Below, in pieces: positions 612-20,866 of a stretch of DNA of 64,000 nucleotides. How positions within the stretch are numbered: position 1 is the first letter of the stretch; each line of letters opens with the position of its first letter. The position numbers were made by a program, and so were the translations under genes. A model generated the notes under the pieces. The model made no database searches and was not told where the DNA came from. It worked only from the letters and a program-made list of their open reading frames with translations. Source of the stretch: Armatimonadota bacterium (GTDB lineage: Bacteria > Armatimonadota > HRBIN16); NCBI GenBank assembly GCA_963677485.1, contig OY781964.1, positions 1,280,001 through 1,344,000 of the forward strand, in the 5' to 3' direction.

Positions 612-711
612 GGGAGCACCTGCCCGTGCTGACACCGCAGCCCAGGCTGTAACTGGTCGTATGGACGCCCCTACGACCAGTTACTTGCGAGTGGATATAT
701 CGGTCCATTCC

Positions 712-1401
712 CTATTTTCGGCGTCGAAAGATATAGTTCGGAGAACCAGCTGTCTTTTCAGATGCGTAGCCCAGGTTGGACAGGAATTCTACAACGGCTT
801 CCTGACCCGTCTCCACCAGCAGAGTTGGTGAGTGCTCGGTCAGAATGCGCGTCATACCCTTCAATGCGGTCAGCTCGTGACCTTCGATATCCATCTTGAT
901 GAACGCAATCTGATGGTCGAATGTCAAACTATCGAGTGGCATGAGGTAGATACCAACATACTCGGGGTCGAGTTCCGCCTCAGGTATCTCATGCGACTCG
1001 AGTGTAGCCCAGCACGCCCAAGACTTTGTCTTCGACCGGGGTATCCTGATCATCGCCTCGTCGCTCTTTTCCGATACCGCCGCATTGAACAAGCTGATGT
1101 TCCTGTAGGAAGCATGATGCATATTGGCGACAAGTGTTTCAAAGGTATCGGGAACCGGTTCAAATGCAAAAACCCTTCCCGTTTTACCAACAAGCGTCGA
1201 CAAGCGGGCGGTATAGCGGCCATCGTTCGCACCGATATCTATCACCCAGTCACCATCATGCACAAATTCATGAAGGCGTTGGAACTCAGGCTCGGGTGAC
1301 GCGAATGTGCCCTTCTTAATGGACCGGCCATGCCGAACCCGTGTGATGGCCCTCCGAAGTGATTCCGGTAATTGAAAGTAAAGTACCCGCAAAAAACTCA
1401 T
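712..1401 (-). CDS. FkbM-family SAM-dependent methyltransferase
   Basis: 'VIDIGANDG', 'FAFEP', 'FIKMDIEGHE' motifs; start moved to ATG 1401, which follows a GGAGG RBS. Confidence 0.85.
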   Translation of the reverse strand: MSFLRVLYFQLPESLRRAITRVRHGRSIKKGTFASPEPEFQRLHEFVHDGDWVIDIGANDGRYTARLSTLVGKTGRVFAFEPVPDTFETLVANMHHASYRNISLFNAAVSEKSDEAMIRIPRSKTKSWACWATLESHEIPEAELDPEYVGIYLMPLDSLTFDHQIAFIKMDIEGHELTALKGMTRILTEHSPTLLVETGQEAVVEFLSNLGYASEKTAGSPNYIFRRRK

Positions 1402-1633
1402 AATAATCCTCCAGCAAGAGCCGTCGTTAATCCGTATCCAATCCGTGGTATAGATTAATGACCACAGATACCATCCATGGCGGAATCCCAAATCCATTAT
1501 GCCATATACCTGATCTGGCCAAACCACGGCAGCAGTACCATCGGTATCACCCTTCTGGCGAACACGCACCCTCTTCAGATTGGTGTATTCTATAAAAAGA
1601 GCTCATACCTTCCATTCAAGGAGAACATATACT

Positions 1634-4441
1634 ATGAATCCTTTCACAGGATCGTGGATTTGGTGCCTGGATACCCGCCCGAAGGTCAACCGCTGGGCCA
1701 GATTCGCAAAACAGTTCGATTACCGCGGCGGAGACGCCGTATTACACATTACCGCTGACAGCCGTTATATCCTATGGGTCAACGGCAGCTACCTGGGCGA
1801 GGGCCCTGCCCGCTGCTGGCCATGGGACTGGAGCTACGACAGCTACGACCTGACGCCCTACCTGCGGGCGAAGAACAACCGGATCGCCGTGCTGGTACAG
1901 CATCTGGGCACCGGCACGATGCAGTACATCCACGGACCAGAGGGGCTTCTGGCACAGCTTGAAATAGACCACCAGAGCCTGCCCACGGACGCAAGCTGGC
2001 TGGCGGCACCGGAGCTGGGAATGCTTCAGAACAGCAGCCGCCACGGCATCCAGCAGGGATACGAAGAGGTGTTCGATGCGCGCCTGACAGAGCTCAAATG
2101 GAGCTGCCCAGATCACAGCCTCTCCGGCTGGCAGCCCGCGGTGGAGCTGCGTTCTGCCGAGGACGGTCACCACGAAAACTTCATCCCCCGCGACATCCCA
2201 GCCATGACTCTGCAGCCTTATCTTCCAGTCAAGCTGGAAGCCGTGGAAGCGGTGAAGAGCCAAGGTTACCGCTTCAGTCTGAACCCGAAACCGATGCTGT
2301 TCCCGGAAGACGAGGCAGCAAACGGCTACTGGCAGCACTTCTATCTCTGCACACAGCTTTACAGCCCCGTTGATGGTGAGCTGAAGCTGGCCCCCGTGAG
2401 CTATTATCCCCACGCCATCAAGGTGAATGGCGTGCTGATGGAAAACAACGTCGCCCCGCTGAAAGCCGGCTGGAATGGCTTGATGATGAAGTATCGCTGC
2501 ATGATGCATCATCCCACCCACCAGATCACCCTGACAGGACCTAATGGCCTGAAGTTCGCGGCATATGGTGATCAGGGTGGTGATGAGTTGATGCTGGTGG
2601 GCAACTTCTTCGGCAAGCCTGAAGAGATGACCGGTCCTGGCTTCCACGACTTCGCTCCGAAACCAGTCGGTCTGCCCAGCGTGGAAGAGGGCGAAGCGGT
2701 CTGGGATTCCGGCGATGCACTGGCAGCCGCTAAGAGCTCCTACGCTCAACATATCCCTGAGCACCTGATGACCCGCATCGACCCCTCCGCTCAGTTCTAT
2801 ATGGACGAGGTGCTGGGCGATACGCAGCTTGGTGACCCTGAGGGCTTCATCAACGGCAACCAGTGGGTCACCGTGCCAGCGGGCACCGATACGCGCATCA
2901 CACTGGACTTCGGCAAGGAGCTTCTGGGTCTGCTGCAGTTTGATGTCATCGCCGCCGAAGGCACCGTGCTGGATGTGATGTTCTTCGAGTATATCGCGCC
3001 CGACGGCCGCCGCGACTGGTGCGACTGGTGCAGCCATGCACTGCGATACGTGTGCGTGGACGGCCGCCAGAGTTACACCGCCACCCACCGCAAGGGGATG
3101 CGCTATGCGGCCATCACCATCCGTGGCGCCGCCAAGCCGGTGCTGCTGCGGGGAGTGAAGATGCTTTTCCAGGGCTACCCGCAGGCGCGACAAGGCAGCT
3201 TCCAGTGCGCCGACGGCAAGCTGAACGCCATCTGGGAGGCCGGCGCACACAGTCTGCGCTGCTGCGCGGAGGACACCTACACCGACTGCCCCACTTTTGA
3301 GCGCGTGCATTGGGTGGGCGATGCCCGCAATGAGGCTCTGGTGGACTACACCGTGAACGGCGACCCCCGCCTGTGGCTGCACTGCGTGAAGCAGATCGCG
3401 GGCAGTCTGCACCGCTCACCCATCGTGGAATCGCATGTGCCCAGCGACTGGTGGAACATCCTGCCGGCCTGGACGGCGCTTTGGATGCGCATGTGCGTGG
3501 AGTATTACCAGTTCACGGGCGACTCAACCGGTGCCCGCGAGCTGATGGTCAGCTTGAAGAAGAACCACGAGGGCATCGAGCAGTTCGTGCGTGAGGACGG
3601 GCTGATTGAGATCACCGGCTGGAACATGTTCGACTGGGCACCGATGGACACACCGTCTACCGGTGCGGTGGTCACGCACATCTGCTGCTTCTTCGTGCTG
3701 GCTCTGCGCGATGTGGCACATCTCGCACATCAACTGAACGACAACGCGTTTGCCGACAACTGCACGGCTCTGGCAGACCGCATCAAGCAGGCGGTCAATG
3801 CCAAACTCTGGAACGAAGAGAAGCAGGCCTACACCGACTGCCTGCGCCCCGAGGGCCAGAGCAAGGTGTTCAGCCAGCAGACCCAAACCGTGGCCGCCTC
3901 CTCAGGCGTCGCCGAGGGCGAGCGCGCGACCCGCTGCCTCAGCATCATCCACAACCCGCCGGAGGGCTTTGTGGTCAGCGGCAGCCCCTTCTACGAGTTC
4001 TTCCTGCTGGAAGCGCTGCAGAGCGAGGGCAAGGATCAGGCCTTCATCGACCGCATCCGCAACGACTGGGGCTTCATAATCGACGCCGGTGCCACCACCT
4101 TCTGGGAGATGTTCAGCGGCACGGGCTGGATCAACAACGACACCTCGCGCGTGACCCGCAGCTTCTGCCATGGATGGTCGGCGGCCCCCACCTTCTTCCT
4201 GACCAACTGGGTGCTGGGCGTGCGACCGCTGGAGCCCGGTTTCAAGAAGATGGTGATTGAGCCCCATGCCGGTGACCTGCTGTGGAGCCGCGGCACCGTG
4301 CCCACGCCGCACGGGGTGGTGAACCTGAACTGGGTGAACGAGCCCGGCAAACCGATGCGCCTCACCGCGAAGATCCCGCAGGCCATCGAGTTTGAGCTCC
4401 GCCTGCCCGAAGGCGCCACGACCGACATCAGCCGGTTTTAA
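1634..4441 (+). CDS. Alpha-L-rhamnosidase-like glycoside hydrolase (GH78)
   Basis: 'ITADSRYILWVNG', 'LDFGKE', 'TDCPTFER..WVGDA', 'GATTFWE', 'SFCHGWS' motifs; ATG 1634 follows AAGGAG. Confidence 0.88.
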   Translation: MNPFTGSWIWCLDTRPKVNRWARFAKQFDYRGGDAVLHITADSRYILWVNGSYLGEGPARCWPWDWSYDSYDLTPYLRAKNNRIAVLVQHLGTGTMQYIHGPEGLLAQLEIDHQSLPTDASWLAAPELGMLQNSSRHGIQQGYEEVFDARLTELKWSCPDHSLSGWQPAVELRSAEDGHHENFIPRDIPAMTLQPYLPVKLEAVEAVKSQGYRFSLNPKPMLFPEDEAANGYWQHFYLCTQLYSPVDGELKLAPVSYYPHAIKVNGVLMENNVAPLKAGWNGLMMKYRCMMHHPTHQITLTGPNGLKFAAYGDQGGDELMLVGNFFGKPEEMTGPGFHDFAPKPVGLPSVEEGEAVWDSGDALAAAKSSYAQHIPEHLMTRIDPSAQFYMDEVLGDTQLGDPEGFINGNQWVTVPAGTDTRITLDFGKELLGLLQFDVIAAEGTVLDVMFFEYIAPDGRRDWCDWCSHALRYVCVDGRQSYTATHRKGMRYAAITIRGAAKPVLLRGVKMLFQGYPQARQGSFQCADGKLNAIWEAGAHSLRCCAEDTYTDCPTFERVHWVGDARNEALVDYTVNGDPRLWLHCVKQIAGSLHRSPIVESHVPSDWWNILPAWTALWMRMCVEYYQFTGDSTGARELMVSLKKNHEGIEQFVREDGLIEITGWNMFDWAPMDTPSTGAVVTHICCFFVLALRDVAHLAHQLNDNAFADNCTALADRIKQAVNAKLWNEEKQAYTDCLRPEGQSKVFSQQTQTVAASSGVAEGERATRCLSIIHNPPEGFVVSGSPFYEFFLLEALQSEGKDQAFIDRIRNDWGFIIDAGATTFWEMFSGTGWINNDTSRVTRSFCHGWSAAPTFFLTNWVLGVRPLEPGFKKMVIEPHAGDLLWSRGTVPTPHGVVNLNWVNEPGKPMRLTAKIPQAIEFELRLPEGATTDISRF

Positions 4442-14051: not shown

Positions 14052-14840
14052 ATGAAGCGTAACGGATTCACCCTTATCGAGCTGCTCGTAGTCATCGCGA
14101 TCATCGCGATCCTGGCAGCCATCCTTTTCCCAGTTTTTGCACAAGCCCGTGAAAAGGCAAAACAGAGCGCCTGCTTGAGTAACATGAAGCAGATGGGTCT
14201 GGCTATGCGGCTCTATTGTGACGACAACGACGGCGGCTTCGCGGCTGTATACGACGATGAGTCTGATACCAACCAGGACGGTCGCTTGGACCGCCAGGTG
14301 TGGTCGGACAAAATCTTCCCTTACACCAAGTCCCGCAACATTTTCGCTTGCCCGTCAATGCGCAACCTCGTGAATGATGCTACAACCATCAATTCATACG
14401 TTGCTGGCGGTATGACTCTGAAATCATTAGGTATGACTACCTACAACATGAACATGTGCCACAACTGGCACTTCCCAGAGGGCACTAACACTGTTGCAGG
14501 CGCACCGGATTATATCTATCCTGTGACCGAGAACCAGTCCGCTAACCCCACCATGACCATCGCCATTATGGAAGGTAACACGACCATTGGCTGGTTCTGG
14601 CAGCACTGGAATGCAGCGCACAACGGCTGGGCAGCCACCCGTAAAGACGGTGACAAACTGATCCTTCACGGTGTTCTTGGTGAAGAGACAACTCAGCGCC
14701 ACACTGACGGCATCAACATTGCCTTCATTGACGGTCACGCTGGCTTCAAGAAGATGGTCGCTTTGACCTGCAACTTCGAGATGTGGAACTTCCGTGAGAA
14801 ACCCGACGTCTGGACATTCCCAGCTCCTTGCGTCAACTAG
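14052..14840 (+). CDS. Prepilin-type DUF1559 / H-X9-DG protein (copy 2, close paralog of 7851-8648)
   Basis: Same N-terminal and H-X9-DG motifs; ATG 14052 follows GGAG. Confidence 0.9.
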
Positions 14841-15048: not shown

Positions 15049-16539
15049 ATGCTTAATGCCCCTGATGTAAAGCTTGCGCTGGTCGGCGTCAGCCGCGACT
15101 GTTTCCCCATCGAACTCACCCGAACACGGCTAGGCAAGCTGGCCGAGGCCTGCAAAAAGATCGGTCTGGATGTTTACGTGGCCGAAACCGTGATCGAAAA
15201 TGAGGTTGATTCGAACGCTGCGCTGGACGAGGTGCTCGCGAATGGCGCCAACGCCGCCGTGGTCTACCTGGGCAACTTCGGCCCCGAAGGCCCGCTCAGC
15301 ATCTTCGCGGAGCAGTTCCCCGGCCCGGTGATGGCCTGCGCGGCCGCGGAAGAGTCCGGCAATAACTTGATACAGGGCCGCGGCGATGCTTATTGCGGCA
15401 TGTTGAATGCTAGCTATAACTTCAGCCTGCGGCAGGTCAACGTGCATATCCCCCAAATGCCCGTTGGCTTGGTGGATGAACTGGCTGAGAAGATCGCCCA
15501 TTTCGAGACGGTCGCCCGCATCGTGATCGGTGTGTGGAACCTGAAGATATTCGGATTTGGCCCACGGCCGCAGGACTTCTTTGCCTGCAATGCGCCGATC
15601 AAGCCGTTCTACGACCTGGGCGTTGAGGTGATGGAGAACAGCGAGCTCGACATGTTCGAGCAGTTCAACAAAACATCAGGCGAGGACGCTGAAGTGAAGG
15701 CCGTTCTAGCCGATATGACAAAGGAGTTGAACAACTGCTGCGGAAACAACCATCCGGGGATACTTCCCAAGCTGGCCCGTTTTGAAGTGGCACTACTCCG
15801 ATTCGCAGAGAAGAACATCGGCAGTCGTGACTTCGCCGTCTTCGCCAACAAGTGCTGGCCCGCGTTTGAAACCAGCTTCGGATTCGTGCCCTGCTTTGTC
15901 AACAGCCGCCTGAGCAGCCGCGGCATCCCGGTGGCATGCGAAGTAGACCTGTATGGCGCGCTCAGCGAGTATATGTGCTATCTGGCAAGCTGCCAGCCTG
16001 CCACCTTGCTGGATATCAACAACACTGTGCCCCGCGACATGCTGAAAGGTGCTGACCTGAAGGGTGCCGCAGTTGACGACCTCTTTATGGGATTCCACTG
16101 CGGAAACACCCCCAGTTGCTGCATGAAGAACTGCAGCATGAAGCACCAGTTGATCATGAACCGCCTGCTGGAAGACCCCACCAAGGAGCCAGACATCACC
16201 CGAGGCACACTCGAAGGCCAACTGAAGCCCGGTGACACCACCTTCTTCCGTCTGCAGGGTAATGCAGCCGGCAAGCTGGTGAGTTACGTGTGCGAGGGCA
16301 GCATCCTGGATATCGATCCGCGCAGCTTCGGCTGTATCGGCGTGTTCGCCATCCCCAACTTCGGCCGCTTCTACCGCCATGTGCTCATCGGCAAGCAGTT
16401 CCCGCACCATGGCGCCGTGGCCTTCAGCAAGGTCGGCAAGGCGCTGTATGATGCGGCCTTGATGCTGGGTGTGGAGGATATGAACGTGCCGCTACCCGCC
16501 AGCATGTGGTATCCCACCGAGAACCCGTTCGAGCTTTAG
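15049..16539 (+). CDS. L-fucose/L-arabinose isomerase family protein
   Basis: 'GNFGPE', 'RGDAYCG', 'KCWP', 'ACEVD', 'FHCGN', 'FPHHGA' motifs. Confidence 0.8.
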   Translation: MLNAPDVKLALVGVSRDCFPIELTRTRLGKLAEACKKIGLDVYVAETVIENEVDSNAALDEVLANGANAAVVYLGNFGPEGPLSIFAEQFPGPVMACAAAEESGNNLIQGRGDAYCGMLNASYNFSLRQVNVHIPQMPVGLVDELAEKIAHFETVARIVIGVWNLKIFGFGPRPQDFFACNAPIKPFYDLGVEVMENSELDMFEQFNKTSGEDAEVKAVLADMTKELNNCCGNNHPGILPKLARFEVALLRFAEKNIGSRDFAVFANKCWPAFETSFGFVPCFVNSRLSSRGIPVACEVDLYGALSEYMCYLASCQPATLLDINNTVPRDMLKGADLKGAAVDDLFMGFHCGNTPSCCMKNCSMKHQLIMNRLLEDPTKEPDITRGTLEGQLKPGDTTFFRLQGNAAGKLVSYVCEGSILDIDPRSFGCIGVFAIPNFGRFYRHVLIGKQFPHHGAVAFSKVGKALYDAALMLGVEDMNVPLPASMWYPTENPFEL

Positions 16540-16574: not shown

Positions 16575-16595
16575 GGGCGCGGAGACCGCGCCCCT
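16575..16595 (-). repeat. GTAG-family REP interrupted by IS110 (left part)
   Basis: GGGCGCGGAGACCGCGCCCCT; adding the AC found after the IS right end restores the exact reverse complement of 18396-18418. Confidence 0.85.
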
Positions 16596-16607
16596 TGTAT
16601 GCTTATA

Positions 16608-16812
16608 GATGGAGGTCCTCAGACCTTAACCCAAGACTTGAGGACCATCCTCACACCGGGACGCTGGGGTGAAAGAGAAGGGGTAGATGCCGTCGCGCCC
16701 CTTGTAGCTTTGACTACGCGACGTAGAATGGCACCCTTCTCTGCAATGACCTAACACGAACAGTATCATGGGCTAAAGCCCGCATTTACAAGGATGTCAA
16801 GGTTGATTGCTT
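16608..16812 (+). ncRNA. IS110 bridge RNA (5' hairpins, target-binding loop, donor-binding loop)
   Basis: CGCGCCCCT 16694-16702 and CGTAG 16722-16726 match the target; ACAGTATC 16760-16767 and TACAAG 16787-16792 match the donor junction; each pair lies in an internal loop closed by stems. RNA ends are approximate. Confidence 0.85.
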
Positions 16813-16845
16813 CACCTGTGTCCCTAACTAGGAGCATACCGGACT

Positions 16846-18009
16846 ATGCAAATCAATGGCAACTCGTACAGCTACTACGCTGGGATCGACATATCTAAAG
16901 ACACTTTCGACGTGTCGGTCGTTGATCAAGACGGCACCCATCTGATCCACAAGCAGTTTGTGAACAACCAGAAAGGCTTCAAAGAGCTGGTGTCACTCAC
17001 CAGGAAGCAAGGCTGGATGCCTGTGCTATTCGCAATGGAAGGCACTGGCGGATGTGAGCAAAAGCTGCTTGACTACCTGTATAAGCATAAGCAGGCAGTC
17101 TCACGGCAAGAACCCTGTCGAATACACTATCATCGCCTCTCACAAGGATCTCGGCAAAAGACAGACTATGTAGACAGCCTGATCATTGCTGACTACGCAC
17201 TAAAGAACCGCCTGCGGCTCTACATTCCTAAAGGCGAAAGCTATCGGGCGCTGCAGGAGATCGGTCGCACACGGCGCATGCTGGTCAGACACCGGAACTC
17301 CCTGCAGCAGAGGCACTCTCACGCGCAGAACCTGCATGCCAAAGCGGTTCTTCAACGCAGCATAGATCACTGCACAGAGGATATCGATCTTTTGAACTCC
17401 GCGGCTGCTGAGATTATCGCCAGCAATGACAGGCTAGCGGAAGATTATCGCCTCCTGAACAGTATTCCGGGTGTAGGTGATATCACATCCAACTACTTTC
17501 TAGGGCTCATCGGTGATATATCTTGCTTTGCGACGTCTGCGAAGATAATCCGATTTGTGGGTATGAACCCATGCCCGCACCAGTCAGGAACCAGCATCGA
17601 TTCCGAAAGCAGCATATCCAAAATGGGCGATCCCTACATGCGCTCCTTGTTATACACCAGTGCCATGGCTGTATTACATATGGTGGATCACAATTCGAAA
17701 GCACTCCATCGCATGTATCGGTTCGTGGCCAAAATGCGGGAGAGATTCGGCCCGAGTTCTAGCAGGAAGGTCGTATGCGCGGTGATGCGCAAGCTGCTGA
17801 TCTTGATGTGGGCTGTGTTGACCAGGCGTAAGGTTTACGATCCGTGCTACGGACTAGAGCCGCAGGATGCTCCGGCCAACCAGACACCGCAATCCGACGA
17901 CACTGGCCTTGTCCAGTCTCGTGCCGAAGCGGCCTCAGATTTTGCCGGCGAAGGCAATGATGCTGGGCAGGACAGTGGCGTTCCAGGATTGGGATGTCTG
18001 GATGGATAG
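16846..18009 (+). CDS. IS110-family DEDD transposase / bridge recombinase
   Basis: 'GIDISK', 'AMEGTG', 'KTDYVD' (DEDD), 'SIPGVG', 'HQSG' (catalytic Ser), 'ISKMG...RSLLY', 'AVMRKL'; AGGAG RBS. Confidence 0.95.
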   Translation: MQINGNSYSYYAGIDISKDTFDVSVVDQDGTHLIHKQFVNNQKGFKELVSLTRKQGWMPVLFAMEGTGGCEQKLLDYLYKHKQAVSRQEPCRIHYHRLSQGSRQKTDYVDSLIIADYALKNRLRLYIPKGESYRALQEIGRTRRMLVRHRNSLQQRHSHAQNLHAKAVLQRSIDHCTEDIDLLNSAAAEIIASNDRLAEDYRLLNSIPGVGDITSNYFLGLIGDISCFATSAKIIRFVGMNPCPHQSGTSIDSESSISKMGDPYMRSLLYTSAMAVLHMVDHNSKALHRMYRFVAKMRERFGPSSSRKVVCAVMRKLLILMWAVLTRRKVYDPCYGLEPQDAPANQTPQSDDTGLVQSRAEAASDFAGEGNDAGQDSGVPGLGCLDG

Positions 18010-18364
18010 CCACCGTGTGGTTCATCCTTGGCCCCAAGTGGTTGAGCAGCATTCCAGAGCCGGCGAGTCAGCGGTAGAAAGATATGATCACCACTAGCTA
18101 GCTGCTCTTGATCTAGCCGCTAAAATGAACATCATTAGAACGTTATCTTTAAAGCCTCAAAGATGCGGGGTGGGCGTTCATCACTACGGATGACGGGCAA
18201 CCCTTTGCATAACGGTGCATCTTCGCGTGGGACCGGCTTGTGCCATGAGCTTGGGTATACCTAAGGTCTATTTGCCACATTGCATAATATAAACGTTGTC
18301 CGCAGAACGTTATGGGCATAAATCTGGTATTTCGGACAAATACCAGATTTCACCCTCGGAGGCC

Positions 18365-18385
18365 TTGACAAATAACACAGTATCT
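18365..18385 (+). promoter_or_regulatory. Outward-facing -35 box in the IS right end; forms a promoter with the left-end -10 on circularisation
   Basis: TTGACA (18365-18370), 17-nt spacer across the junction, TATGCT (16598-16603). Confidence 0.8.
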
Positions 18386-18395
18386 ACGGTCAATT

Positions 18396-18524
18396 GTAGG
18401 GGCGCGGTCTCCGCGCCCAATGTATTCCGCGCCCACGGGCGACGGCCGGTCGCCCCTGTGATCATCTGTCTCCCGATTGACGTACGACCTTCCTATTCGC
18501 GTTCATTCGCGTTCATTCGCGGTT
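18396..18524. repeat. REP cluster: GTAG-REP, a second REP-like palindrome and a 10-nt tandem repeat
   Basis: GTAGGGGCGCGGTCTCCGCGCCC; GGGCGACGGCCGGTCGCCCC; (ATTCGCGTTC)x2 followed by ATTCGCGGTT. Confidence 0.7.
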
Positions 18525-18577
18525 AAACATACCCTACCGGAAAAGTGACGAGTAGGACAGGCGGCTGCCCTACCGCG

Positions 18578-20866
18578 TTATTTCGCCGGTTGGATCGTGA
18601 ACCGGTCGATTCGGATGGCTTTGATGTTCGGGTTCACTATCGGTGCCACAAACAAGTACATGCCCGGCGTGAGCTCGATCCCTTTATACACCATCTGCTG
18701 ATAGCCAGGCTTGATATCAGCCACAGTCAGCACACTGGTTGTCGTCTTTTCGGTGATTTTGTTACGTATGCCAAACTGCAGCACGCCATCGGTTGGCTGG
18801 CCGGCTTTACCTTCAGCGGGTATCACCTTCACCTCCAGGCTGACATCTACTTTGGGCCACTTCACCTCACCTTCGTAGATGTGGTGCTGCACGGCCCACT
18901 CGGTATGGCTGCACGGCATCTCCGCGGCGTAGCCGTTGCTGGCTTCTGGGTCCTTCACGATATTGACCCAGTTCCCCTCTTCAGCCAGGTTGAAGTCACC
19001 CTCTTGTGCATCCAGCCAGTCCACCCCTTGGACCCCGCTCACGCCCATCGCTGTGTCCGCTTTGGGATAGCTGGGAGGCGGTGCGATCTTGGCCTTGAGC
19101 TGAGTGCGAAAGCCCTCATCCCACTTACGGCCTTCACTGGGCCAGTTGTTTCCGGTTTGGTTGCTCAAGTCCGTGAAGTGATCCACTATGGTGTCCCAGT
19201 TGATCCCTGGCACCTCTTGATGTGCCTGTGCGAGGTTGCGTTTGGTGTTGATCAACACCAGATCCAGTGCCAGGCGTTGAATCTGCACGCGTTTCAGCAA
19301 CGTCGGGTTGTTCTTGACGGCCGCTTCGGCTTGATCGTATAGCCTCTTGAACTTCGTCAGCTCATCGATGTTGTAGTAGTCCGCATTACCGATGTAGCAC
19401 GAAAGCCGCACACCCGAACGTTTGCGGGCCGCTTCCATCGCCAGCACCGCTTCGAGCAGCGGCTTGCCAGCCGGACCGTAATACCCATCCATGAACTCCT
19501 TCATGATGGGCAGTTCGGGCTGGTAGGGGTTCCACATCAGCTTGGACAGCAGATAGACCTTCAATGGATGCATGGTGGAATCCACGTTGAAGCTGTCGCC
19601 TTGTTCAAACATGCCCACCACGTTGTTCTCAGTGAAGCTGCGCAGGTCGGACCCAAGGATGCTGAAGTTCGGGTGAGGAATGAGATAGCTTGAGAAGTCC
19701 ACGACGTAGTTCCATACATACAGCCGTTTCGCGATCTTTTTCCAGTCCGTAAGGTCCTTATAGAATGACTTATTCTCTGCGGCTGTGATAGGCTTGCCAA
19801 AGTCATTCTCGATGCTGCACAGACGCACAATCACGTTGTCGCGCGGTTTAATGTTGGTAGGCGCATGGCGAGTATACTGGTATGCCAGTGTCTCCACAAG
19901 GAAGTCGGGGTACTGCTTTTCAATTTCAACGGCCACGTCGTTGACGAAGCTGATCAGAGCACCAGATTCGGAGCCAGTCTTCTTGACCAGTTCTTTGCAC
20001 TTGTCACACTGACAAGGACTCATATCGTCATTCTGCGTGATAGAGATCATGCCGGCATCGGGCTGTTTGCGAATGGTGTCCAGCGCGACCTTCACCATCT
20101 CCCGCTTCATATCCTCATTGGTCAGGCACATCTGGGTGTAACCACCGTCACGCTTACCGTTGATCAGCGAATACCACTCAGGATGCTGCGCATAGTATTT
20201 AGCGGCAGGCAGCATTTTGTCGAAGGTATGCACAAATCCCAGCAGGTTGTAATGCCCGCCCATCTCGGGCTTGATCTGTTGATGGTGCCCATTCATGCGC
20301 ATATGCACAGGGAAAAGGTCATCCTTCTGTATCACGTTGTAGAAATAGGCCTCGCGATACATCAGCTTGGGTGTGTAACAAACATTCATGGCTGGCACAG
20401 TGATGGTCTTTAACTTGGGAATACGCTGCGCATCCGGGGCATACCAACGCACGCCCAGTTTCGTCTCCAGCAGCTCCTGCACCGCGTAGATGCTGCCCCT
20501 GGGACGATCACCAGATAGTATCAGGTCGCGGCCAGTGGTGCGGATCAGGATGCCATCACGGCGAAGCTGCTCCCAGTTGAAGCCCTTCATCAGCCGTTTG
20601 ACCACGGCGGTCTGACCCACAAATATCCGCGTGCCTGCGGAGGGTGCAATATCGGTGATTTTCAACCGGGCACCACTCATCTGCTGGATCGTGTCCGCGA
20701 GTTGTTTCGCAGCAAACCGCTCCGGCGCGGTGGCGTCCGTGCCCAGCACGATGGTGGCGGTCGGCTTTCCCGATTTCACGACAGTCAACGGCGAGGCTGC
20801 CTTGGCGGGCAGGCTGGCCAACACCAGCAACGGCAAAATGCACGGAATGAGATCACAGACATTCAT
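18578..20866 (-). CDS. Secreted DUF4838 protein with GH67/GH20-like N-terminal domain (paralog 1)
   Basis: Signal peptide; 'ERFAAKQL', 'RGSIYAV', 'QMCLTN', 'CQCDKC', 'TLAYQYT', 'KLMWNP'. Confidence 0.8.
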   Translation of the reverse strand: MNVCDLIPCILPLLVLASLPAKAASPLTVVKSGKPTATIVLGTDATAPERFAAKQLADTIQQMSGARLKITDIAPSAGTRIFVGQTAVVKRLMKGFNWEQLRRDGILIRTTGRDLILSGDRPRGSIYAVQELLETKLGVRWYAPDAQRIPKLKTITVPAMNVCYTPKLMYREAYFYNVIQKDDLFPVHMRMNGHHQQIKPEMGGHYNLLGFVHTFDKMLPAAKYYAQHPEWYSLINGKRDGGYTQMCLTNEDMKREMVKVALDTIRKQPDAGMISITQNDDMSPCQCDKCKELVKKTGSESGALISFVNDVAVEIEKQYPDFLVETLAYQYTRHAPTNIKPRDNVIVRLCSIENDFGKPITAAENKSFYKDLTDWKKIAKRLYVWNYVVDFSSYLIPHPNFSILGSDLRSFTENNVVGMFEQGDSFNVDSTMHPLKVYLLSKLMWNPYQPELPIMKEFMDGYYGPAGKPLLEAVLAMEAARKRSGVRLSCYIGNADYYNIDELTKFKRLYDQAEAAVKNNPTLLKRVQIQRLALDLVLINTKRNLAQAHQEVPGINWDTIVDHFTDLSNQTGNNWPSEGRKWDEGFRTQLKAKIAPPPSYPKADTAMGVSGVQGVDWLDAQEGDFNLAEEGNWVNIVKDPEASNGYAAEMPCSHTEWAVQHHIYEGEVKWPKVDVSLEVKVIPAEGKAGQPTDGVLQFGIRNKITEKTTTSVLTVADIKPGYQQMVYKGIELTPGMYLFVAPIVNPNIKAIRIDRFTIQPAK

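What the first reader, a model, noticed from the sequence alone, without database searches (positions are those of the whole stretch)
16575..18418. IS110 inserted exactly at a CT inside one arm of a REP doublet
Seen: deleting 16596-18385 gives GGGCGCGGAGACCGCGCCCCTAC-GGTCAATT-GTAGGGGCGCGGTCTCCGCGCCC, a perfect 23-bp inverted pair. This fixes both ends and the 2-bp core, with no target duplication beyond CT. Established: IS621 also targets REPs. Inference: IS110 elements repeatedly exploit abundant, neutral intergenic GTAG-REP sites.
Basis: partly seen in the sequence, partly recalled or inferred. Interest (0 to 1): 0.7.

Follow-up and report, generated by a model that had tools for sequence, protein, structure and literature searches.

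The report
Bridge-RNA IS110 element inside a REP pair
A 1.8-kb IS110-type jumping gene, which carries its own guide RNA, sits exactly at a CT inside the GTAG tail of one of two inverted REP repeats; this behaviour is already well documented for relatives such as IS621, so the case is clear but ordinary.

Summary
Removing window 16596-18385 restores GGGCGCGGAGACCGCGCCCCTAC-GGTCAATT-GTAGGGGCGCGGTCTCCGCGCCC, with 23/23 complementary arms.

- **Ends.** They are fixed independently of the palindrome by a second copy (99.6% identical, broken by an IS21-family element) in a different REP. That copy has the same termini and the same CCCCT|ACG junction.
- **Element.** It is 1790 bp and encodes a 387-aa DEDD + Tnp recombinase (PF01548, PF02371, NF033542). 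All IS621 catalytic residues are aligned.
- **Bridge RNA.** The left end folds into a 5' stem-loop plus two internal-loop stem-loops. The target loop carries CGCGCCCCU (the left flank plus CT, 9/9) and GACGUAG (pairs with CTACG..). The donor loop matches the element's own ends.
- **Covariation.** Four relatives with other left target guides each sit beside the REP arm that their guide spells. Across all five variants, 24/24 sites are at CCCT|A and 23/24 are beside a hairpin.
- **Not found.** No empty allele, circle junction or RNA was seen.

REP targeting by IS110 elements is in print (IS621, ISPa11, ISPpu9, ISPpu10). This is a new member of a known kind.

The parts
16575..16595 (.). Left REP unit of the doublet, cut 2 nt before its end. 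It is a GGGCGCGG-AGA-CCGCGCCC hairpin followed by CT; the missing AC is at 18386-18387. Its last 9 nt (CGCGCCCCT) are the left target plus core.
16594..16595 (+). Core dinucleotide CT, target-side copy. The second copy is at 18384-18385.
   Evidence: The same CT is present at all 24 sites tabulated.
16596..18385 (+). IS110-group insertion sequence ('IS-A', 1790 bp). It has no terminal inverted repeats. Its termini are TGTATGC... and ...CACAGTATCT.
16598..16603 (+). TATGCT, a candidate -10 box. In a circular form it would lie 17 nt downstream of the TTGACA at 18365-18370.
   Evidence: consensus match only, no expression data
16608..16652 (+). Predicted 5' stem-loop of the bridge RNA.
   Evidence: The relative B has a hairpin of different sequence at the same place.
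16674..16742 (+). Predicted target-binding loop. It has a lower stem, a 10 x 10 internal loop and an upper hairpin (UGUAG/CUACG).
16694..16702 (+). Left target guide CGCGCCCCU. It is identical to the top strand of the left flank plus CT (9/9), so it would pair with the bottom strand.
   Evidence: It covaries with the flank in A', B, L119 and L120.
16720..16726 (+). Right target guide GACGUAG, the reverse complement of CTACGTC. It matches 5/7 at this site and 7/7 at copy 2.
16743..16812 (+). Predicted donor-binding loop.
16759..16767 (+). Left donor guide AACAGUAUC. ACAGUAUC equals the right-end terminus ACAGTATC(T).
16782..16792 (+). Right donor guide GCAUUUACAAG. It pairs with CT + TGTATGC with a 2-nt bulge: 9 RNA nt on 7 donor nt, the discontiguous pattern reported for IS621.
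   Evidence: PMC11208160 passage
16846..18009 (+). Recombinase gene, 387 aa. The DEDD RuvC-like domain spans residues 12-156 and the Tnp domain 202-287. D15, E65, D107, D110 and S247 align with the IS621 catalytic residues.
18010..18385 (+). Right non-coding end (376 bp) with conserved hairpins. It contains a perfect 13-bp hairpin at 18320-18350 and TTGACA at 18365-18370. The last 9 nt are the left donor plus core.
18386..18395 (.). AC (the end of the left REP's CTAC tail, forming the right target ACG...) followed by the 8-nt spacer GGTCAATT.
18396..18418 (.). Right REP unit, intact: a GTAG tail followed by the GGGCGCGG-TCT-CCGCGCCC hairpin.

Best explanation
Window 16596-18385 is an intact member of the IS110 group of the IS110 family, that is, a bridge-RNA-guided recombinase element.

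**Proposed mechanism (inferred from homology to IS621).** The left end encodes an RNA of about 200 nt with a 5' stem-loop, a target-binding loop and a donor-binding loop.
- The 3' side of that loop (GACGUAG) pairs with the top strand at CT+ACG...
- The donor loop pairs in the same way with the joined right-end/left-end junction of an excised circle (ACAGTAT-CT-TGTATGC).
- The DEDD/Ser recombinase would then exchange strands just after CT, inserting the circle without any duplication other than the shared CT.

**Why REPs are hit.** In this clade the core plus the first right-target bases (CT|AC) are the complement of the invariant GTAG tail of the host's REPs. The left guide spells the variable REP stem. 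Each guide variant therefore lands in one REP family, always in the same orientation.

**What happened here.** The hit REP was the left unit of a tail-to-tail REP doublet, so the element now separates the two units.

**Shown:** anatomy, ends, core, guide-target and guide-donor complementarity, and covariation across relatives. **Inferred:** RNA expression, a circular intermediate and current activity.
For: **1. Protein.**
- PF01548 1.1e-26, PF02371 4.1e-21.
- NF033542 'IS110 family RNA-guided transposase' 189.6 bits against a cut-off of 140.
- IS621 chain 8wt6_A at E 1.1e-24 over residues 10-325.
- D15, E65, D107, D110 and S247-G248 stand opposite IS621 D11, E60, D102, D105 and S241-G242, which are named as catalytic in PMC11208158.

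**2. Ends and core.**
- Two copies in this genome have identical termini in different flanks and only CT is shared.
- The copies differ by 4 substitutions and one 3-nt insertion in 1790 bp.

**3. Guide position.** An unbiased scan of both non-coding ends for exact matches to the insertion site put the longest match at the homologous left-end position in all three elements examined: 9 nt in A, 11 nt in A', 11 nt in B. Each has top-strand sense and ends in CT. The right end gave only 6-8 nt matches.

**4. Covariation of the left guide with the flank**.
- A: CGCGCCCCU with flank CGCGCCCCT.
- A': GGGUCAUCCCU with flank GGGTCATCCCT. 8 copies match 9-11 of 11.
- B: GAACCGCCCCU with flank GAACCGCCCCT. 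12 copies: eleven match 8-11 of 11 and one matches 6 of 11.
- L120: CGUGCCCCU with flank CATGCCCCT.
- L119: GUGGCCCCU with flank GTTGCCCCT.
- A and A' differ at 6 of 8 positions in the distal guide but at roughly 8% of positions elsewhere in the left end (my count from the alignment).

**5. One non-REP site.** A' copy L031 still matches the guide: GTCATCCCT, 9 contiguous (9/11 in the table).

**6. Donor loop.**
- ACAGUAUC equals the right-end terminus.
- In the right donor guide, the base opposite the first left-end base changes A to U where the element's first base changes T to A, comparing A with B.

**7. Fold.**
- z = -4.7 for the left end.
- With the guides held unpaired, the fold is a 5' stem-loop plus two internal-loop stem-loops, as described for 103 orthologues in PMC11208160.
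- On 4 sequences, 89.3% of cells pair against 36-46% when partners are slid, and 8 pairs change on both sides against 0-3.

**8. Promoter.** TTGACA-17 nt-TATGCT forms only across the joined ends. The integrated copy has GGGCGC at the -35 place.
Against: - No RNA, circle junction or empty site was observed. The runs found are assembled contigs, which only show the occupied allele.
- The same-genus genome has a different intergenic region at this locus.
- A metagenome scan with the right flank found nothing.
- No Rfam family matched (0 hits at E <= 1), so the RNA assignment rests on my own alignment, on folds derived from sequence A (which biases), and on only 3-5 effectively independent sequences.
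- Guide matches are imperfect at real sites: 5/7 for the right guide here, 7/9 for the left guide at copy 2, and 6/11 at one B site.
- The genome has no site with 0-1 mismatch to the full 14-nt guide-specified target; 36 sites have 2 mismatches. Specificity is therefore looser than the guides alone suggest, or something else contributes.
- The right end (376 bp) is longer than the left end (250 bp), which is unlike IS621, and its function is unknown.
Confidence: 0.9

Rival explanations
1. The REP hairpin is itself a required second recognition signal, read as structure by the recombinase in addition to RNA pairing. This is the 'dual-match' logic proposed for ISPpu10. Under it the element is confined to REPs for reasons beyond the guide sequence. 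It complements the best explanation rather than excluding it.
For: - 23 of 24 sites in five guide variants have a GC-rich hairpin whose 3' arm abuts the core.
- The hairpins at the B sites differ by compensatory changes (GGTTCGCGAACC, GATTCGCGAATC, GTTTCGCGAAAC), so the stem is kept while distal guide matches are lost.
- One B site has only 6/11 guide matches but still has a hairpin.
- The abstract of preprint 10.64898/2026.03.19.712850 reports such a gate experimentally for ISPpu10.
Against: - A' copy L031 sits in a non-REP site with no hairpin at the core but a 9-nt guide match.
- Hairpin and guide match are confounded. The guide spells a palindrome arm, so any good guide match in this genome is nearly always in a REP.
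- No experiment was done here.
Confidence: 0.35
2. The two 23-bp inverted arms are the terminal inverted repeats of a larger transposon (16575-18418), not a pre-existing target.
For: Perfect 21-23 bp inverted repeats flank the element.
Against: - Copy 2 has the same inner element with unrelated flanks.
- The arm sequence occurs 73 times (<=4 mismatches) without the element, including empty doublets.
- Relatives sit beside other REP families.
Confidence: 0.01
3. The element is of the IS1111 type: the guide (seekRNA) is encoded in the long right end, and subterminal inverted repeats mark the ends.
For: The right end (376 bp) is longer than the left end (250 bp) and has conserved hairpins.
Against: - The right end holds no match longer than 6-8 nt to any insertion site, while the left end holds 9-11 nt matches at one homologous position in three elements.
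- NCBIfam places the protein in NF033542.
- I did not run a dedicated search for subterminal inverted repeats.
Confidence: 0.02

Closest known systems
IS621 of Escherichia coli (IS110 group; bridge RNA; PDB 8WT6)
   Same: - Same two-domain recombinase with all five catalytic residues aligned.
- CT core, and no duplication other than the core.
- Left-end RNA with a 5' stem-loop plus a target loop and a donor loop. The left guide has top-strand sense and the right guide pairs with the top strand.
- The right donor guide pairs discontiguously, 9 nt on 7.
- IS621 inserts in REPs at ...GGCCT|AC, the same CT|AC point of a CTAC-ending REP.
- A promoter is rebuilt across the joined ends (for IS621; here).
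   Different: - About 29% protein identity (my count from the alignment).
- No DNA similarity to any E. coli genome searched.
- About 60 extra C-terminal residues.
- A right end of 376 bp.
- A different left guide and a different REP family.
- Nothing has been tested experimentally for this element.
ISPpu9, ISPpu10, ISPa11 and ISRm19 (IS110-family elements with 'type 1' REP association)
   Same: [quoted passage not shown]
- ISPpu10 targets carry a GC-rich 5' stem-loop (abstract read).
   Different: - I did not compare sequences with these elements.
- Here several guide variants within one clade each use a different REP family.
- ISPpu9 carries a downstream small-RNA gene (abstract listings). 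Whether the conserved right-end hairpins here are analogous is unknown.
GTAG-tagged REPs and their tail-to-tail (TT) dimers
   Same: The target is a GC-rich palindrome with a terminal GTAG. It is dispersed and often in inverted pairs. The pair here has its GTAG ends inside, the TT arrangement defined in PMC3733652 (passages read).
   Different: No REP-associated tyrosine transposase was recognised. The three Y1 transposase genes score as IS200-like or below every curated cut-off, and all lie below the RAYT cut-off.

Membership tests
IS110 family, IS110 group (bridge-RNA-guided recombinase elements) | Recombinase with an N-terminal DEDD RuvC-like domain and a C-terminal Tnp domain | tested here: met
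   PF01548 (residues 12-156) and PF02371 (202-287). NF033542 scores 189.6 bits, above its cut-off of 140.
IS110 family, IS110 group (bridge-RNA-guided recombinase elements) | Catalytic D, E, D, D and Ser residues present | tested here: met
   D15, E65, D107, D110 and S247 align with IS621 D11, E60, D102, D105 and S241 (alignment; residues named in PMC11208158). They are also invariant between A and B.
IS110 family, IS110 group (bridge-RNA-guided recombinase elements) | No terminal inverted repeats, and no target duplication other than a shared core dinucleotide | tested here: met
   The termini TGTATGC... and ...CAGTATCT are not inverted repeats. Only CT is shared at the junctions in 2 copies of A, 8 of A', 12 of B, plus L119 and L120.
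IS110 family, IS110 group (bridge-RNA-guided recombinase elements) | Left-end non-coding RNA with a 5' stem-loop and two stem-loops that have large internal loops | tested here: met
   This rests on prediction only: with pair counts (89.3% paired against 36-46% when slid; 8 pairs changed on both sides; 4 sequences; structure derived from A). No Rfam model exists or matched.
IS110 family, IS110 group (bridge-RNA-guided recombinase elements) | The loop sides are complementary to target and donor. The 5' side pairs with the bottom strand including the core, and the 3' side pairs with the top strand including the core. | tested here: met
   with covariation in five guide variants.
IS110 family, IS110 group (bridge-RNA-guided recombinase elements) | [quoted passage not shown] | tested here: inconclusive
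   TTGACA-17-TATGCT in A and TTGACA-17-TACGCT in B. This is a consensus match only.
IS110 family, IS110 group (bridge-RNA-guided recombinase elements) | Excision to a double-stranded circle, and RNA-dependent insertion | not testable with these tools
   Only assembled contigs were available and they show the occupied allele.
IS1111 group (seekRNA in the right end, subterminal inverted repeats) | Guide encoded downstream of the recombinase gene | tested here: not met
   The right end holds only 6-8 nt matches to the sites, while the left end holds 9-11 nt matches.
GTAG-tagged REP, tail-to-tail dimer | A short GC-rich palindrome with a terminal GTAG, in many dispersed copies and often in inverted pairs | tested here: met
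   73 hits at <=4 mismatches. GTAGGGGCG occurs 228 times against about 60 expected on both strands.
GTAG-tagged REP, tail-to-tail dimer | A cognate REP-associated tyrosine transposase in the genome | tested here: not met
   There are 3 Y1_Tnp genes. Against the RAYT model NF047646 they score 24.7-31.3 bits, below its cut-off of 80. Two pass the IS200 cut-off. Two of the three loci have no GTAGGG or CCCTAC in 3.3 kb.

The most novel reading that the evidence does not exclude
**Reading.** The left guide of this clade is renewed in blocks by copying a left junction (flank-CT-first bases of the element) into the target loop, rather than by point mutation. An element that lands off-target could then adopt the new REP family as its cognate target.

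**Hints.**
- In A and A', the identity between the left junction and the target loop runs past the guide into the next four bases (UGUA, the element's first TGTA). That gives 13-nt and 15-nt direct repeats about 100 bp apart.
- A and A' differ at 6 of 8 distal guide positions while the surrounding RNA is about 92% identical.

**Against.**
- B shows no such extension.
- A and A' are not independent.
- L120 differs from A by a single guide base, which fits ordinary mutation.
Probability: 0.05. Interest if true: 0.7.

Novelty: new member of a known kind. Interest (0 to 1): 0.28.

Why it matters
The case adds nothing to the mechanism, which is established for IS621.

Its value is as a clean natural series. 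Five closely related bridge RNAs share the same scaffold, core, right guide and donor loop. Their left guides spell five different REP stems, and 24 mapped insertion sites go with them. This shows in nature what was shown by engineering: the left guide is the retargeting module. It also gives a simple reason why CT-core IS110 elements and GTAG-tagged REPs go together, since CT|AC is the complement of the REP tail.

For annotation, it fixes the element's ends and flags the left-end RNA, which no Rfam model recognises. The 23/24 hairpin association is usable field evidence for or against the recently proposed structural gate at IS110 targets.

Tried and rejected
**Empty allele in relatives.** I searched the 696 nt upstream of the element in 31 genomes and 6 had a match, counting the window's own. 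I read only the best match, the same-genus genome G001. Its intergenic region (about 250 bp) holds other REPs and no homologous doublet.

**Empty allele or circle in reads.**
- 23 runs were listed, all kept as contigs, and I laid 4 of them.
- Contigs bridge both junctions in all four runs, which belong to 2 studies and may include the source sample.
- The one 'skip' (16594 to 18399, with 14 letters between and a side of 20) is a paralogous, degenerate doublet at genome 2713120-2713173, not an empty site.
- The letter differences and the CCA insertion seen in X3 and X5 are the copy-2 variants, not strain variation.
- Nothing is concluded from depth.

**Other searches that led nowhere.**
- The metagenome scan with a 44-nt right-flank stretch gave 0 matches.
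- Rfam gave 0 matches at E <= 1.
- The E. coli genomes, searched in distant DNA mode with the whole element, gave no match, so IS621 DNA could not be aligned directly.

**Controls and scope.**
- My control for the genome-wide guide-site count used the reversed genome. It is invalid because reversed palindromic REPs still resemble the motif, so no enrichment figure is claimed from it.
- The antisense ORF (17759-18052) was considered as the cause of the high nucleotide conservation of the gene's 3' end. The sense frame is at least as well conserved. This is left open.
- Of the 79 loci returned, I analysed only the 8 at 84% identity. The other 71 (<=34%) were not examined.
- I did not build a covariance model.
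- Supplementary files of the papers were not consulted. Supplementary tables of PMC11208160 and PMC1525189 may already list elements of this clade.
Full report
**1. What is in the sequence**

Window 16575-16595 reads GGGCGCGGAGACCGCGCCCCT. From 16596 a different sequence begins (TGTATGCTTATAGATGG...). It ends ...CACAGTATCT at 18385 and is followed by ACGGTCAATT and GTAGGGGCGCGGTCTCCGCGCCC at 18396-18418.

Because CT stands at both 16594-5 and 18384-5, the cut can equally be placed two bases to the left. Each arm is itself a small hairpin (GGGCGCGG-AGA-CCGCGCCC) with a GTAG/CTAC end. The structure is therefore two REP units in inverted orientation with their GTAG ends inside. This is the 'tail-to-tail' dimer of Di Nocera et al. 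(PMC3733652, passages read).

The site lies between the ends of two convergent ORFs, 15049-16539 (+) and 18578-20866 (-).

**2. Are the arms a real repeat family?**

The genome is one contig of 5,220,040 bp with 54.4% G+C.
- GTAGGGGCG occurs 110 + 118 times against 29.9 expected per strand.
- There are 728 GTAGGGG/CCCCTAC sites, falling into several stem families.
- The 23-nt arm has 73 hits at <=4 mismatches. These include unoccupied tail-to-tail pairs, for example at 14357-14410, also with an 8-nt spacer.

I found no REP-associated tyrosine transposase. Two of the three Y1 transposase genes pass the IS200 cut-off, and all three are far below the RAYT cut-off.

**3. Ends**

The palindrome alone is a weak ruler, since 21 of the 23 left-arm bases are there regardless of the boundaries. 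The ends are fixed by other copies.
- A second copy lies at genome 2667677-2672038. It has the same first and last bases, in a different REP: GTAGGGGCAGGCACAGGGGCCTGCCCCT|...|ACGTCATGCG.
- That copy differs by 4 substitutions and a 3-nt insertion.
- Its recombinase gene is split by a 2.56-kb IS21-family element carrying IstA and IstB, 29-nt inverted ends and a 6-bp duplication.

**4. The protein**

ORF 16846-18009 encodes 387 aa.
- It has PF01548 and PF02371.
- It passes NCBIfam NF033542 'IS110 family RNA-guided transposase'.
- It matches the solved IS621 recombinase at E 1.1e-24.
- D15, E65, D107, D110 and S247-G248 stand opposite the residues that Hiraizumi et al. show to be catalytic (PMC11208158, passages read).

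**5. Relatives**

- *In this genome.* There are 12 copies of a 1812-bp relative, 'B', with 46% protein identity. Ten copies are full length and differ from the reference copy by 0-2 bases. Two carry a 16-bp deletion.
- *In another genome.* A scan of species-representative genomes returned 79 loci. Eight of them, all in one 5.3-Mb metagenome-assembled chromosome, are 84% identical in protein ('A'). The remaining 71 loci are <=34% identical and I did not examine them.
- *In metagenomes.* A motif scan gave three more contigs. Two carry full elements with new guides (L119, L120), and one is a fragment of A'.

**6. The RNA**

[quoted passage not shown] The right donor guide pairs 9 nt on 7 (PMC11208160, passages read).

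The left end here fits this description.
- It folds well (z = -4.7).
- With the guide stretches held open, it gives a 5' stem-loop (16608-16652).
- It then gives a stem with a 10 x 10 internal loop and a small upper hairpin (16674-16742).
- A second such stem follows (16743-16812).

The four guide stretches read as follows.
- The 5' side of the first loop is CGCGCCCCU, identical to the left flank plus CT.
- The 3' side of the first loop holds GACGUAG, the complement of CTACGTC. The site here is CTACGGT and copy 2 is CTACGTC.
- The 5' side of the second loop holds ACAGUAUC, the right terminus.
- The 3' side of the second loop holds GCAUUUACAAG, which pairs with CT + TGTATGC with two bases bulged.

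An unbiased scan of both non-coding ends found the longest site match at this same left-end position in A, A' and B (9, 11 and 11 nt). Nothing longer than 8 nt was found in the right ends.

Pair counts on four sequences support the stems: 89.3% paired against 36-46% when slid, and 8 pairs changed on both sides against 0-3. The structure was derived from one of the sequences, and the sample is tiny.

Rfam has no matching family.

**7. Guide and flank change together**

| Variant | Left guide | Left flank | Copies |
|---|---|---|---|
| A | CGCGCCCCU | CGCGCCCCT / CCTGCCCCT | 2 |
| L120 | CGUGCCCCU | CATGCCCCT | 1 |
| L119 | GUGGCCCCU | GTTGCCCCT | 1 |
| A' | GGGUCAUCCCU | GGGTCATCCCT | 8 |
| B | GAACCGCCCCU | GAACCGCCCCT and variants | 12 |

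- For L119, the regular arm of that REP would be GTGGCCCCT.
- A' copies match their guide at 9-11 of 11 positions.
- Eleven B copies match at 8-11 of 11 and one at 6 of 11.
- All 24 sites end in CCCT. In 22 of the 24 the right flank starts AC, and in the other 2 it starts AT.
- 23 of the 24 sites have a hairpin whose 3' arm is the left half-site.
- The exception, A' copy L031, lies outside a REP yet keeps nine contiguous guide matches. This argues that pairing, not the REP as such, is the primary selector.

The right guide (G/A)ACGUAG is nearly constant, matching the constant CTAC(G) of the REP tail. Between A and B, the first base of the element changes T to A and the facing base of the right donor guide changes A to U.

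**8. Promoter**

Joining the right end to the left end gives TTGACA-17 nt-TATGCT in A and TTGACA-17 nt-TACGCT in B. In the integrated copy the -35 place reads GGGCGC. This parallels the published junction promoter and the weak expression from integrated IS621 (PMC11208160; abstract of PMC13626964). Here it is only a consensus match.

**9. What was not found**

No empty allele, circle junction or transcript was found. Activity is inferred only from three things: intact parts, two near-identical copies of A, and ten near-identical full-length copies of B.

**10. Comparison with what is known**

Site-specific insertion of IS110-family elements at one position of a REP, with the REP rebuilt by joining the flanks, was described for ISPa11, ISPpu9, ISPpu10 and ISRm19, and experimentally for IS621 (PMC1525189, passages and table read).

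IS621 inserts at ATCAGGCCT|AC in E. coli REPs, that is, at the same CT|AC of a CTAC-ending REP.

A 2026 preprint reports that the GC-rich stem-loop 5' of the ISPpu10 target is an additional specificity signal (abstract read). The 23/24 hairpin association here fits that idea but cannot separate it from guide matching.

A search for papers linking RAYT, IS110 and GTAG listed none that makes the 'CT|AC equals the complement of the GTAG tail' point in its title or abstract (listing only). I do not claim that the point is unpublished.

**11. Verdict**

The element is an ordinary, apparently intact, bridge-RNA IS110 member. The added value is the five-variant guide series and the precise RNA annotation.

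Noticed in passing
genome 2668304-2670866 (L118 about 705-3267), inside copy 2 of the element: An IS21-family element splits the recombinase gene of the second IS-A copy. It has a 519-aa IstA (rve plus Mu transposase C-terminal domain), a 255-aa IstB, 29-nt imperfect inverted ends and a 6-bp duplication (GCTCTA). The bridge-RNA region and both ends of that copy are intact, so it might still be mobilised in trans.
   Followed up: partly
window 17880-18010 (3' end of the recombinase gene) and minus-strand ORF 17759-18052: The last ~40 codons are the most conserved stretch at the nucleotide level between A and B: 71-80% against 46-60% elsewhere. IS621 has no counterpart to this tail. An antisense frame is open in A, A' and B, with conserved HP..P(I/V)LER..PAQ and PLRH motifs. 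The cause could be dual coding, an RNA element, or simply a conserved Gly/Ala/Asp-rich tail.
   Followed up: partly
window 18010-18385 (right non-coding end): The right end is long (376 bp) and has blocks conserved in A, A' and B. These include an invariant hairpin (TATCTTT...AAAGATG, about 18146-18168) and, in A, a perfect 13-bp hairpin at 18320-18350 just upstream of the TTGACA. The function is unknown. It may be a terminator that insulates the junction promoter, or a small RNA like the one downstream of the ISPpu9 transposase gene.
   Followed up: partly
genome-wide: 12 copies of element B, e.g. L004 304-2115: Element B (1812 bp) is the expanding member of the clade. Ten full-length copies differ from the reference copy by 0-2 bases. 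Nearly all sit beside GGGCG(G/A/T)TTCGCGAA(C/T/A)CGCCC hairpins. Only one intact GTAGGGGCGGTTCGCGAACCGCCC remains unoccupied in the genome, while 14 GTAGGGGCGATTCGCG sites remain.
   Followed up: partly
genome 138550-138987 (-), 1100948-1101385 (+), 3874741-3875178 (+), 2574553-2575029 (-): Four further PF01548 hits belong to other IS110-family lineages. The two-copy lineage (a common block of 1867 bp) has no GTAG-REP at its ends. REP targeting is therefore a property of the A/B clade, not of all IS110-family elements in this genome.
   Followed up: partly
window 18428-18460 and 18490-18530: Just right of the doublet lies a degenerate REP of another family (GGGCGACGGCCGGTCGCCCCTGTG). Next to it is a short tandem repeat (CGTTCATTCG x3). 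That repeat is highly multicopy in the laid runs, with a depth spike at 18462-18548 and many loose ends.
   Followed up: no
genome 3495643-3495700: A REP arm ending ...GCGCCCCT is followed by TGTATGCTGCTGGTAGATAT. This shares the first 8 bases of the IS-A left end and may be a remnant or an unrelated element. A similar ...TGCTGGTAGATAT lies near 3499470.
   Followed up: no
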